Shown here: positions 6,001-9,000 of the stretch, piece after piece
How positions within the stretch are numbered: the stretch's first letter is position 1
How the letters are laid out: the number at the start of each line of letters is the position of its first letter
NCBI RefSeq assembly: GCF_056712565.1
Contig: NZ_CM160072.1
Reading direction: 5' to 3' (one strand)
DNA length: 64,000 nucleotides
Program-made: the position numbers

Positions 6001-9000
6001 AGGTAATTCTGCTAGCTGGCATTTTCCCTGCAAACGAACTCTTTTCTCCAGCGTCTCAGCATCACGGTAATAATTGGCGTCCAGTACCAGGGCAACCAAG
6101 GTATTATTTTCCAGATCCAGTAATTCGAGAGAATCAAAACAGCCTTCTTCCGACAAAGTCCCCGAAACACGTTTCGTCACTTCACCTTGCTCATCCATTA
6201 ATGTCTGAGTGAAATCTTTTACGGGACCACGCAGCGGATCAAAATCGAATTCATTAGAGAAACTGGCCATCTCCGGGGTAAATGAAAGTGTTACCTCTGT
6301 GCGGTCACATCCTGTGAGTAATATCGCGAGTAAGCATGGCAGTAATTTGTATTTCACAACAGTCACCTGAGAGTAGAGATAATTCTCAATCATAGTAGCA
6401 AATACAGTACTTTACACGTTAAATGCTATGCTTAAAGAAGTTATCTTCGCGTAAGGAGCTTATGATGAAACTCTCAACCTGCTGTGCCGCGCTTCTGCTC
6501 GCCCTCGCCTCACCCGCGGTACTCGCCGCGCCGGGATCCTGTGAGCGCATACAGAGCGATATATCACAGCGCATTATCAATAATGGCGTACCCGAAAGCA
6601 GCTTCACGTTAAGTATTGTACCCAATGACCAGGTTGATCAGCCTGATTCCCAGGTCGTCGGGCATTGCGCTAATGATACGCATAAAATTCTCTACACCCG
6701 TACCACCAGCGGTAACGTCTCTGCTCCCGCGCAGTCTACCCAGGATAACGCGCCTGCTGAACCGCAGTAACACATTATCGACTGAACGCCGGATACGACA
6801 CATCCGGCGATTTGAACATACAACATAATCCCACCTTATTACTCATACCCTTCTATTGATATGGATTAATAATTATTAACCCCAAATGGGTAGACTCTCT
6901 CTATTGTTAGCGCGCTAAATATTCAATATATAAACATTTATATAACGATAAAGAACAGGGAGTGAGTTATGTCCAAAAATGAACAAATGGTGGGCATCAG
7001 CCGCAGAACACTCGTTAAATCTACCGCGATAGGTTCTCTGGCGCTGGCTGCAGGCGGTTTTTCTTTGCCGTTTACCCTGCGCAGTGCAGAAGCAGCGGTA
7101 CAACAGGCCAACGAAAAAGTGGTCTGGGGTGCCTGTTCCGTCAACTGTGGTAGCCGCTGTGCACTTCGTCTGCATGTTAAAGATAATGAAGTGACCTGGG
7201 TGGAAACTGACAACACCGGCAGCGACGAGTATGGCAACCATCAGGTACGCGCCTGTTTGCGCGGTCGCTCCATCCGTCGGCGTATTAATCATCCCGATCG
7301 CCTGAATTACCCAATGAAACGCGTGGGCAAACGCGGCGAAGGCAAATTCGAACGGATTAGCTGGGATGAAGCCCTGGATACTATCGCCAGTAGCCTGAAA
7401 AAAACCGTCAAACAATATGGCAATGAGGCTGTATATATTCAGTACTCTTCGGGGATTGTTGGCGGCAATATGACCCGCTCTTCTCCATCAGCCTCGGCGG
7501 TCAAACGCCTGATGAACTGCTACGGCGGTTCACTAAATCAGTATGGCTCCTACAGCACTGCGCAAATTTCCTGTGCCATGCCCTACACCTACGGCAGTAA
7601 TGATGGCAACAGCACCACGGATATTGAAAACAGCAAGCTGGTCGTGATGTTTGGTAACAACCCGGCTGAAACCCGCATGAGCGGCGGTGGCATCACTTAT
7701 CTTCTTGAAAAAGCACGCGAGAAATCGAACGCAAAAATGATTGTTATCGATCCGCGATATACCGATACGGCTGCTGGTCGTGAAGATGAATGGCTTCCTA
7801 TTCGCCCTGGCACCGATGCCGCGCTGGTTGCGGGTATTGCCTGGGTATTGATTAACGAAAATCTCGTTGATCAACCTTTTCTCGATAAATACTGCGTCGG
7901 CTATGACGAAAAAACCTTACCCGCAGATGCACCCAAAAATGGTCACTATAAAGCCTATATTCTTGGTGAAGGCGATGATAAAACAGCGAAAACGCCGCAG
8001 TGGGCTTCGCAAATTACAGGTATCCCGGTAGACCGTATCATCAAACTGGCGCGTGAAATTGGCACAGCAAAACCCGCTTATATCTGCCAGGGCTGGGGGC
8101 CGCAACGCCAGGCAAACGGCGAGCTGACGGCACGCGCTATTGCTATGTTGCCTATTTTGACGGGCAATGTCGGCATCAGCGGCGGAAATAGTGGTGCGCG
8201 TGAATCGACCTACACCATTACCATCGAACGCTTGCCGGTGCTGGATAATCCGGTCAAAACGTCAATCTCCTGCTTCAGCTGGACAGATGCTATCGATCAT
8301 GGCCCGCAAATGACGGCAATCCGCGACGGCGTCCGGGGCAAAGATAAACTAGATGTGCCCATTAAGTTCATCTGGAACTACGCGGGAAATACCCTGGTTA
8401 ATCAGCATTCTGACATCAACAAAACGCATGAAATTCTGCAGGACGAATCGAAATGCGAAATGATTGTGGTCATCGAAAACTTTATGACCTCATCGGCAAA
8501 ATATGCCGACATTCTGCTGCCAGACCTGATGACCGTTGAGCAGGAAGATATTATTCCTAACGACTACGCCGGTAACATGGGATATCTCATTTTCCTCCAG
8601 CCTGTCACCAGCGAAAAATTCGAACGCAAACCAATTTACTGGATCCTGAGTGAAGTCGCGAAACGTCTTGGACCTGACGTCTATCAAAAGTTCACTGAAG
8701 GTCGCACGCAGGAACAATGGTTACAACATCTGTACGCCAAAATGCTTGCCAAAGATCCGGCGTTACCGTCTTACGACGAATTAAAAAAAATGGGTATCTA
8801 TAAGCGTAAAGATCCCAATGGTCATTTTGTCGCCTACAAAGCATTTCGTGACGACCCCGAGGCAAATCCACTTAAAACGCCTTCCGGTAAGATTGAAATT
8901 TATTCCAGCAAGCTGGCGGAAATTGCCCGTACCTGGGAACTGGAAAAAGATGAAGTGATAAGCCCACTGCCGGTTTATGCCTCAACCTTTGAAGGCTGGG

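What the first reader, a model, noticed from the sequence alone, without database searches (positions are those of the whole stretch)
6856..6869. Candidate FNR half-palindrome upstream of ynfE
ttgatatggattaa resembles TTGAT-N4-ATCAA and is suitably placed (~100 bp upstream of the ynfE start codon) for anaerobic activation.
Basis: inference. Interest (0 to 1): 0.2.

Follow-up and report, generated by a model that had tools for sequence, protein, structure and literature searches.

The report
Known FNR activator site at ynfE

Summary
The sequence is there as described. Window 6856-6869 reads TTGATATGGATTAA, a 9/10 match to TTGAT-N4-ATCAA, centred 106.5 bp upstream of the ynfE ATG (6969). It has two half-sites, so it is not a "half-palindrome".

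The window is E. coli, and K-12 has the identical 14-mer. Myers et al. 2013 (PMC3688515) list this exact 14-mer as a predicted FNR site lying under an FNR ChIP-seq peak. They place it at -40.5 from the transcription start and class ynfEFGH-dmsD as directly FNR-activated. Sigma-70 signal at the promoter is 27 aerobically and 709 anaerobically.

My cross-species comparison adds that TTGA(T/C)-N4-(A/G)TTAA sits at a fixed distance from a TA-initiated -10 element across the Enterobacteriaceae compared. The non-consensus T of ATTAA is invariant (47/47).

Beside it lie three other conserved features:
- a NarL-like 7-2-7 element (6877-6892);
- an unexplained conserved block at +1 to +14;
- a strong ModE-operator match in the leader (6922-6949).

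Verdict: already known class II FNR activator site; low interest.

The parts
6856..6869 (.). FNR binding site TTGATATGGATTAA. The upstream half TTGAT is perfect; the downstream half is ATTAA instead of ATCAA. Centre 6862.5.
   Evidence: Sequence. Identical in K-12. The exact 14-mer is listed at an FNR ChIP-seq peak in Myers 2013 Table S6. TTGA and TAA are invariant in 52 aligned species. In the anchor test that did not select on FNR, 44/55 loci have <=2 mismatches, against 0.9% of displaced control windows.
6877..6892 (+). NarL-like 7-2-7 inverted heptamer pair TAACCCC-AA-ATGGGTA, lying between the FNR site and the -10 element and overlapping the -10's first two bases. It is the candidate site for the reported nitrate/NarL repression.
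   Evidence: Two mismatches to TACYYMT-NN-AKRRGTA, which is not above chance on its own (3 matches vs 2.49 expected). T6877, the C-run and G-T-A 6890-6892 are conserved across genera. NarL repression of this promoter is reported via PMC6561318 citing Xu et al. 2009. Assigning that repression to these bases is my inference.
6891..6896 (+). -10 hexamer TAGACT of the FNR-dependent ynfE promoter.
   Evidence: It is implied by the published -40.5 position, which puts the TSS at about 6903. T6891 is 100% and A6892 98% conserved. The distance from the FNR centre to this T is 28.5 bp in 36 species and 29.5 bp in 10. No consensus -35/-10 promoter is found in 6700-7050, as expected for an activator-dependent promoter. 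The hexamer assignment is inference.
6903..6903 (+). Inferred transcription start of ynfEFGH-dmsD, give or take 1-2 nt.
   Evidence: FNR centre 6862.5 plus 40.5. Myers Table 1 gives the site location relative to the TSS taken from EcoCyc and Kim et al.. The start was not mapped in this strain.
6902..6916 (+). Strongly conserved block (C/T)AT(C/T)(A/G)TTAGC..G.T at about +1 to +14. In E. coli it includes the palindrome TTAGCGCGCTAA (6907-6918). Its function is unexplained.
   Evidence: Information content is 1.7-2.0 bits at 6907-6911, 6914 and 6916 in 52 species, as high as the FNR half-sites and the Shine-Dalgarno. There is no Rfam match and no consensus RNA structure. ynfE is absent from the held ArcA ChIP and expression supplements.
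6922..6949 (.). ModE-operator-like inverted repeat TTCAATATATA-AACATT-TATATAACGAT in the 5' leader, centred about +33.5 from the TSS and -33.5 from the ATG.
   Evidence: It matches 18/20 positions of the E. coli ModE consensus ATCGNTATATA-N6-TATATANCGAT (consensus quoted in PMC545781). It is the only match with <=3 mismatches in the window, against 0.01 expected. It is conserved at the same position in 20 Escherichia, Citrobacter, Salmonella and Intestinirhabdus loci (including this window and K-12) with <=5 mismatches, while shuffled sequences gave none with <=4 and a mean of 0.2 of 112 at 5. ModE binding was not tested.
6957..6971 (+). Shine-Dalgarno AGGGAGTGAG and the ynfE ATG (6969).
   Evidence: Sequence. 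GG.GTGAG is nearly invariant across species. The K-12 CDS start aligns here.
6969..9395 (+). ynfE coding sequence (selenate/tellurate reductase catalytic subunit with a Tat signal peptide), the first gene of the regulated operon.
   Evidence: ORF. RefSeq annotation of the matching E. coli records.
6787..6809 (+). Inverted repeat CGCCGGAT-N7-ATCCGGCG after the ynfD stop codon, probably the ynfD terminator. It bounds the ynfE promoter region on the upstream side.
   Evidence: Sequence. Other genera carry a GC-rich hairpin directly upstream of the FNR site. The terminator scan did not call it because the T-run is short, so this is inference.

Best explanation
Window 6856-6869 is the FNR operator of the E. 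coli ynfEFGH-dmsD promoter, a class II (overlapping -35) activator site.

Proposed mechanism:
1. Under anaerobiosis the [4Fe-4S] FNR dimer binds TTGAT-ATGG-ATTAA, centred 40.5 bp upstream of the transcription start (about 6903).
2. The promoter has only a weak -10 (TAGACT, 6891-6896) and no recognisable -35, so FNR recruits and activates sigma-70 RNA polymerase there.
3. This switches on the selenate/tellurate reductase operon.
4. Nitrate counteracts activation through NarL, probably at the 7-2-7-like element at 6877-6892 between the FNR site and the -10.

Shown, by published data on the identical K-12 sequence:
- FNR occupancy of the site;
- the position of the site relative to the transcription start;
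- FNR-dependent and anaerobic expression;
- the anaerobic gain in sigma-70 occupancy.

Shown here:
- the sequence itself;
- its near-invariance within E. coli;
- its conservation across genera at a fixed distance from the -10.

Inferred:
- the exact -10 hexamer;
- the NarL site assignment;
- the FNR-RNA polymerase contacts, taken from general knowledge of class II FNR promoters;
- that this particular strain behaves like K-12.
For: - Sequence and position. The window is E. coli, with ynfD upstream and ynfE downstream.
- K-12 differs at only a few bases across 6760-6990, none of them inside the 14-mer.
- Myers 2013 Table S6 gives: 1655980, PatSer score 13.01, ln p -11.5, TTGATATGGATTAA, ynfE, at a ChIP-seq peak '+'.
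- Table S5: the ynfE peak is called by three ChIP-seq peak callers and by ChIP-chip.
- Table 1: Category 1, directly activated, one site at -40.5 from the TSS, with sigma-70 occupancy and expression both up without O2.
- Table S2: sigma-70 signal 27.27 aerobic vs 708.59 anaerobic.
- Table S8: FNR-activated in all three transcriptome datasets.
- Table S12: ynfE ratio 0.027.
- Independent citations of FNR dependence and NarL repression.
- No consensus sigma-70 promoter is found in 6700-7050, which fits activator dependence.
- The 34 bp around the site are identical in 5034 of 5293 E. coli genomes. The one variant examined changes a spacer base only.
- Across species, TTGA and TAA are invariant in 52 aligned promoters.
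- With an anchor chosen independently of FNR, 44/55 loci carry a <=2-mismatch site at the expected offset, against 0.9% of displaced windows. The centre-to--10 distance is 28.5 or 29.5 bp in 46 of 47.
Against: - The downstream half-site departs from consensus at the position equivalent to the G of TTGAT. Four other ...TTAA-type predicted sites seen in the part of Myers Table S6 that I read are not bound, so sequence alone predicts a weak site.
- I could not read the primary promoter dissection (Xu et al. 2009, not held). I therefore have no direct look at point-mutation or footprint evidence for this 14-mer.
- All experimental data come from K-12, not from the strain of the window, which is about 97.6% identical over this kilobase.
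- The ChIP-seq summits (1,656,036 and 1,656,063) lie 50-77 bp downstream of the site centre. That is within ChIP resolution but not on the site.
Confidence: 0.95

Rival explanations
1. The 14-mer is a chance match to the FNR consensus with no regulatory role, and ynfE is FNR-regulated indirectly or through another site.
For: Matches with <=1 mismatch are common: 7 in the window against about 2.7 expected. Two of them (uidA, rsxA) are documented as unbound. The right half-site is non-consensus.
Against: Myers reports one FNR motif under the ynfE ChIP peak, and it is this 14-mer. It is the only match with <=1 mismatch in the ynfD-ynfE intergenic region. It is conserved at a fixed distance from the -10 in about 47 species whose flanking DNA has diverged.
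Confidence: 0.01
2. FNR binds here, but the productive promoter is the downstream -10-like hexamer TATTGT (6902-6907; consensus CATCAT across genera), with a start near the conserved G6914. FNR would then sit at about -51.5 and act by a non-standard mechanism, or there would be two promoters.
For: The block 6902-6916 is as conserved as the FNR half-sites. (C/T)ATnnT followed 7 nt later by a 96%-conserved G looks like a -10 plus a start site. This is my reading.
Against: Myers places the site at -40.5 from the catalogued TSS. In the same paper, 19 of 23 FNR-activated promoters with a known TSS have sites at -41.5 +/- 4. A position of -51.5 is on the opposite helical face from the known class I and class II positions (established knowledge of CRP/FNR activation). 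The T and A at 6891 and 6892 are 98-100% conserved at class II spacing.
Confidence: 0.03
3. The site is recognised by CRP or another CRP/FNR-family protein rather than FNR.
For: CRP and FNR sites are related inverted repeats. The weak right half (TTAAT read on the other strand) could be taken to suggest relaxed specificity.
Against: The core is TTGA-N6-TTAA with FNR-type spacing and a T, not a G, before the conserved GA, whereas CRP needs GTGA-N6-TCAC (established knowledge). FNR ChIP occupancy and loss of expression in the fnr mutant are documented.
Confidence: 0.01

Closest known systems
FNR site of the E. coli K-12 ynfEFGH-dmsD (ynfEFGHI) promoter (Xu, Busby & Browning 2009, J Bacteriol 191:3172; Myers et al. 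2013, PLoS Genet 9:e1003565)
   Same: It is the same locus and the identical 14-mer TTGATATGGATTAA, with the same flanking -10 region and leader apart from a few substitutions. This is the same element in another E. coli strain.
   Different: Only strain-level polymorphisms outside the half-sites: 6875 A/C, 6883 C/A, 6898 T/C and 6936 A/T relative to K-12. No experiment has been done in this strain.
dmsABC P1 promoter of E. coli (the paralogous DMSO reductase operon)
   Same: A class II FNR site (Myers Table 1 gives -41.5) activates a Tat-exported molybdoenzyme operon anaerobically. FNR and ModE control of dmsA is stated in PMC12096835. That nitrate represses dmsA through NarL is from my own knowledge and was not checked here. 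ynfE shows the same combination as sequence features: an FNR site, a NarL-like element and a ModE-like operator.
   Different: The site sequence differs (the dmsA right half is AACAA, from my own knowledge, not checked here). At ynfE the ModE-like operator sits in the transcribed leader at about +33. ModE control of ynfE was neither tested here nor found in the papers I could read.
Generic class II CRP/FNR-dependent promoters (for example narG, nirB, yfiD, focA)
   Same: A 14-bp TTGAT-N4-ATCAA-type inverted repeat is centred near -41.5 and replaces a -35 element. Myers finds 19 of 23 activated promoters with this geometry.
   Different: The ynfE site carries a conserved non-consensus T in the downstream half (ATTAA). 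In the part of Myers Table S6 that I read (part 1 of 2), it is the only ...TTAA-type predicted site marked as bound.

Membership tests
FNR class II activator site | 14-bp inverted repeat matching TTGAT-N4-ATCAA | tested here: met
   9/10 match. PatSer score 13.01 and ln p -11.5 pass the -10.75 threshold of Myers Table S6.
FNR class II activator site | Occupied by FNR in vivo under anaerobic growth | tested here: met
   Established by look-up of published data for the identical K-12 sequence. The site is marked '+' at an FNR ChIP-seq peak (Table S6), and the peak is called by MOSAiCS, NCIS, CisGenome and ChIP-chip (Table S5). Not measured in this strain.
FNR class II activator site | Centred near -41.5 (+/-4) from the transcription start, overlapping the -35 region | tested here: met
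   -40.5 in Myers Table 1, with the TSS taken from EcoCyc and Kim et al.. The spacing from the site centre to the T of the TA-initiated -10 is conserved at 28.5/29.5 bp in 46 of 47 species. No consensus -35/-10 pair is present.
FNR class II activator site | Downstream operon shows FNR-dependent, anaerobic induction | tested here: met
   Established by literature look-up. Table S8 shows 'Activated' in all three datasets. Table S12 gives a ratio of 0.027. Sigma-70 signal is 27 aerobic vs 709 anaerobic. An anaerobic, nitrate-repressed response of the Nissle ynfE promoter is reported in PMC6561318.
FNR class II activator site | Mutation of the half-sites abolishes activation, or the site gives an in vitro footprint | not testable with these tools
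   The primary study (Xu et al. 2009, PMC2681810) is not held. Only citations of its conclusions were available.
NarL 7-2-7 operator (6877-6892) | Two TACYYMT heptamers in inverted orientation separated by 2 bp | tested here: inconclusive
   There are 2 mismatches of 14, and the window holds 3 such matches against 2.49 expected. The key positions are conserved across genera, and several genera show better matches by eye, for example TACCTCC-AA-ATAAGTA in Enterobacter.
NarL 7-2-7 operator (6877-6892) | NarL binding and nitrate-dependent repression mapped to this element | not testable with these tools
   Nitrate/NarL repression of the promoter is reported, but I could not read where NarL binds.
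ModE operator (6922-6949) | Match to the E. coli consensus ATCGNTATATA-N6-TATATANCGAT | tested here: met
   18/20 match. It is the sole match with <=3 mismatches in 64 kb, against 0.01 expected. The consensus is taken from PMC545781.
ModE operator (6922-6949) | Conserved in orthologous promoters | tested here: met
   Found at -33.5/-32.5 from the ATG in 20 Escherichia, Citrobacter, Salmonella and Intestinirhabdus loci (including this window and K-12) with <=5 mismatches. Shuffled sequences gave none with <=4 and a mean of 0.2 of 112 at 5. Absent in Enterobacter, Kosakonia and Leclercia.
ModE operator (6922-6949) | ModE-molybdate binding and molybdate/modE-dependent expression of ynfE | not tested
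   No paper in the held library that I found links ModE to ynfE. Studholme & Pau 2003 is not held.

The most novel reading that the evidence does not exclude
The ynfE control region may hold more than the published FNR/NarL switch.

(a) The non-consensus T of the downstream half-site (ATTAA) is invariant in 47/47 species. It may be kept by selection for a deliberately weak, polymerase-dependent FNR site, or for a second overlapping function.

(b) The equally conserved block at +1 to +14 (CATnATTAGC..G.T) may be an operator for a regulator not yet assigned to this operon.

(c) In the Escherichia/Citrobacter/Salmonella clade, a ModE operator in the transcribed leader may couple the operon to molybdate from an unusual downstream position.
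Probability: 0.2. Interest if true: 0.3.

Novelty: already known. Interest (0 to 1): 0.07.

Why it matters
As a finding it confirms textbook regulation. The oxygen sensor FNR turns on an alternative respiratory (selenate/tellurate/S-oxide) reductase operon, and this exact site is already in genome-wide FNR ChIP tables and in a dedicated promoter study.

The modest added points are these:
- The imperfect half-site and the class II spacing are conserved over many enterobacterial genera.
- A strong, clade-specific ModE-operator match lies in the leader.
- A conserved block at the transcription start has no explanation.

Each could be tested cheaply with reporter fusions.

Tried and rejected
Papers I could not read:
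- Xu, Busby & Browning 2009 (PMC2681810), not held.
- Kang et al. 2005 (PMC545700), not held.
- Studholme & Pau 2003 (PMC317290), not held.

As a result, the mutational and footprint evidence and the published NarL position could not be checked directly.

Searches that gave no information:
- Kim et al. 2012 supplements hold only an orthologue table row for b1587 and no TSS entry that I could find.
- The sigma-70 consensus promoter scan and the terminator scan of 6700-7050 found nothing. This is uninformative for an activator-dependent promoter.

RNA-level explanations for the conserved leader were rejected:
- There is no Rfam match at E<=1 apart from a spurious lncRNA hit.
- RNAalifold gives no consensus structure on the 52-species alignment.
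- A pyrimidine tract at 6893-6901 is complementary to the Shine-Dalgarno and seemed to co-vary with it in some Enterobacter species. I rejected it as an anti-SD element because it lies upstream of the inferred start, some species break the pattern, and no consensus fold supports it.

ArcA as the factor for the +1 to +14 block is unsupported. The direct-repeat match is poor, and ynfE is absent from the held supplements of the ArcA ChIP and expression study.

The NarL 7-2-7 pattern is not statistically distinguishable from chance in the window. I keep it only as a positional and conservation-based inference.

Literature searches for ModE at ynfE were swamped by the words 'mode' and 'model' and yielded nothing relevant.
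Full report
**1. Observation**

Window 6856-6869 reads ttgatatggattaa. Against TTGAT-N4-ATCAA, the upstream half is perfect and the downstream half (ATTAA) has one mismatch. It is therefore a complete two-half-site FNR-type inverted repeat at 9/10, not a half-palindrome.

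The centre lies between 6862 and 6863.

The bare match is not beyond chance. The window holds seven matches with <=1 mismatch, against 2.66 +/- 1.6 in dinucleotide-preserving shuffles.

**2. Where we are**

A 1-kb query around the site hits 5385 of 5426 complete E. coli genomes at 95-100% identity, with ynfD upstream and ynfE downstream. K-12 MG1655 annotation shows ynfB, speG, ynfC, ynfD and ynfE in the same order. Aligned to K-12, window 6760-6990 differs at a handful of bases, none of them inside the 14-mer.

**3. What is already published about this exact sequence**

Myers et al. 2013 (PMC3688515) report the following:
- Table S5 shows the ynfE peak called by three ChIP-seq peak finders and by ChIP-chip.
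- Table 1 puts ynfEFGH-dmsD in Category 1 (directly activated). It lists one FNR motif located at -40.5 relative to the transcription start (start sites taken from EcoCyc and Kim et al.), with sigma-70 occupancy and expression both increased without O2.
- Table S2 gives the sigma-70 signal as 27.27 aerobic vs 708.59 anaerobic.
- Table S8 scores the operon as FNR-activated in all three transcriptome datasets.
- Table S12 gives ynfE a ratio of 0.027. In that table, known aerobic genes such as acnB and fumA have ratios above 1. I therefore read the ynfE value as roughly 37-fold higher expression anaerobically; that reading is my inference.

Three later papers cite Xu, Busby & Browning 2009 for FNR activation, and one of them for NarL/nitrate repression, of this promoter. 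One reproduces the behaviour with the E. coli Nissle promoter: anaerobic ON, nitrate OFF, aerobic OFF. I could not read Xu et al. itself.

Two other FNR-like 14-mers in the window, 44054 (uidA) and 54781 (rsxA), are in the same Table S6 marked as not bound. This shows that sequence alone would not have been enough.

**4. Anatomy and mechanism**

A position of -40.5 puts the transcription start at about 6903. That makes TAGACT (6891-6896) the -10 hexamer. There is no recognisable -35, and the consensus promoter scan finds nothing in 6700-7050.

This is the standard class II arrangement. FNR, dimeric and DNA-binding only with its [4Fe-4S] cluster, sits over the -35 region and activates sigma-70 RNA polymerase directly (established knowledge of CRP/FNR class II promoters). 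Myers et al. note that 19 of 23 FNR-activated promoters with a known start have sites at -41.5 +/- 4.

An inverted repeat after the ynfD stop codon (6787-6809) probably terminates ynfD. ynfE would then depend on this promoter, which is inference.

**5. Conservation**

*Within E. coli.* The 34 bp at 6841-6874 are identical in 5034 of 5293 genomes, and 259 genomes have one difference. In the one variant I fetched, the difference is A6861G, a spacer base.

*Across species.* I anchored on the ynfE coding sequence (GACSVNCGSRC as a degenerate DNA pattern) in the one-genome-per-species collection, which gave 120 loci across Enterobacterales.
- Of 112 loci with enough upstream DNA (these include this window and K-12 L001), 37 carry a <=1-mismatch FNR 14-mer within 220 bp of the ATG. 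Most of these are at -100 to -108.
- The 52 promoters with a site in that position come from a wide range of Enterobacteriaceae. They include Escherichia, Salmonella, Citrobacter, Enterobacter, Lelliottia, Leclercia, Kosakonia, Phytobacter, Silvania, Intestinirhabdus and Pseudenterobacter.
- They align with TTGA and TAA invariant, while the DNA upstream of the site is essentially unalignable.

*Control for circular selection.* That set was chosen using the motif itself, so I repeated the test with an independent anchor: the conserved TTAGC about 50 bp downstream.
- Of 55 loci with the anchor, 44 have a <=2-mismatch FNR site at offset -51/-52, against 0.9% of displaced control windows.
- The distance from the site centre to the T of the TA that begins the -10 is 28.5 bp in 36 species and 29.5 bp in 10.
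- Position 12 of the 14-mer is the non-consensus T in 47 of 47.

So the class II geometry and the imperfect half-site are both conserved.

*Other clades.* Klebsiella, Raoultella, Pluralibacter and most Kluyvera lack a convincing site at this position. Buttiauxella, Cedecea, Rahnella and Ewingella have FNR-like sites further from the ATG. I did not pursue these.

**6. Neighbouring elements**

(a) *NarL-like element.* TAACCCC-AA-ATGGGTA (6877-6892) resembles a NarL 7-2-7 site and overlaps the first two bases of the -10.
- Statistically it is indistinguishable from chance in the window.
- Its key positions are conserved, and some genera have better matches.
- It is the obvious candidate for the reported NarL repression. 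That assignment is inference.

(b) *ModE-operator match.* TTCAATATATA-AACATT-TATATAACGAT (6922-6949) matches 18 of 20 specified positions of the E. coli ModE consensus (consensus from PMC545781).
- It is the only match with <=3 mismatches in 64 kb, against 0.01 expected.
- It sits at -33.5 from the ATG in 20 Escherichia, Citrobacter, Salmonella and Intestinirhabdus loci (including this window and K-12). Salmonella reads CGCTATAGA-N6-TATATAGCG.
- It is absent from Enterobacter, Kosakonia and Leclercia.
- I found no held paper linking ModE to ynfE. It may nevertheless be catalogued elsewhere.

(c) *Unexplained block.* A block at 6902-6916, (C/T)AT(C/T)(A/G)TTAGC..G.T, is as conserved as the FNR half-sites. 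In E. coli it includes the palindrome TTAGCGCGCTAA.
- There is no Rfam family and no consensus RNA fold.
- The ArcA datasets I could read give no support.
- It could be a second -10 with a start near G6914. I give that low weight, because it would place FNR at -51.5.

**7. Comparison and novelty**

This is the same element as the K-12 ynfE FNR site, seen in another E. coli strain. It works like the paralogous dmsA P1 promoter and other class II FNR promoters. Every defining feature I could check is met. The one I could not check is site-directed mutagenesis or footprinting, which is reported in a paper I could not open.

The finding is therefore correct and already known. Interest is low. The residual curiosities (the invariant weak half-site, the block at +1 to +14, and the ModE operator in the leader) are listed separately.

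Noticed in passing
window 6922-6949: There is a strong ModE-operator match (TTCAATATATA-N6-TATATAACGAT, 18/20 to the E. coli consensus) in the ynfE 5' leader. It is the only such match in the window (expected 0.01). It is conserved at -33.5 from the ATG in Escherichia, Citrobacter, Salmonella and Intestinirhabdus but not in Enterobacter or Kosakonia. This suggests molybdate control of ynfEFGH from a position downstream of the start site. I found no paper on it in the held library.
   Followed up: partly
window 6902-6918: A block (C/T)AT(C/T)(A/G)TTAGC..G.T at about +1 to +14 is conserved across 52 species as strongly as the FNR half-sites and the Shine-Dalgarno. In E. coli it forms the perfect palindrome TTAGCGCGCTAA (6907-6918). 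I found no explanation: no Rfam hit, no consensus RNA fold, and no ArcA evidence.
   Followed up: partly
window 6867: The non-consensus T in the downstream FNR half-site (ATTAA instead of ATCAA) is invariant in 47/47 species that have the site. In the part of Myers Table S6 that I read (part 1 of 2), the four other ...TTAA-type predicted sites seen (yajC, aldA, ttcA, ygaQ) are all unbound. This suggests the weak half-site is selected rather than drifting.
   Followed up: partly
window 6877-6892: A NarL-type 7-2-7-like element, TAACCCC-AA-ATGGGTA, lies between the FNR site and the -10. It is not above chance as a pattern, but its key positions are conserved. It is the likely seat of the published nitrate/NarL repression.
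   Followed up: partly
L123 (E. coli 19SZHZ713Rt), equivalent to window 6892 and 6861: This strain carries A6892G, which changes the highly conserved A at position 2 of the inferred -10 hexamer (TAGACT to TGGACT) and the last base of the NarL-like heptamer. It also carries A6861G in the FNR spacer. This could be a natural promoter-down variant. I did not determine how many of the 259 variant genomes share it.
   Followed up: no
L002 (E. coli FDAARGOS_1262), ynfE: This was the best-matching record (100% identity over the aligned pieces). It has ynfE annotated as a frameshifted pseudogene. The 1001-base query spans 1047 bases there in two pieces, implying an insertion of about 46 bp in or near the start of ynfE that the window lacks.
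   Followed up: no
window 44054-44067 and 54781-54794 (also 1835, 22940, 32329, 41188): These are other <=1-mismatch FNR-like 14-mers. TTGATCCGCATCAC (within uidA) and TTGCTGAATATCAA (within rsxA) are listed by Myers et al. as predicted sites not occupied by FNR. The other four were not examined.
   Followed up: partly
window 16133-16146: TTGAGATAGCGCAA (3 mismatches) lies about 92 bp upstream of the minus-strand ynfK start (ATG at about 16047). Myers et al. report an FNR ChIP peak and FNR-dependent activation at ynfK, so this is probably that weaker site.
   Followed up: no
L037, L046, L070, L081, L086, L089 (Klebsiella and Raoultella loci): The ynfE-like genes of Klebsiella, Raoultella, Pluralibacter and most Kluyvera lack a convincing FNR site at the Escherichia position. 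The best matches have 3-4 mismatches at about -180 to -200. The promoter architecture of this operon is therefore not uniform across Enterobacteriaceae.
   Followed up: no
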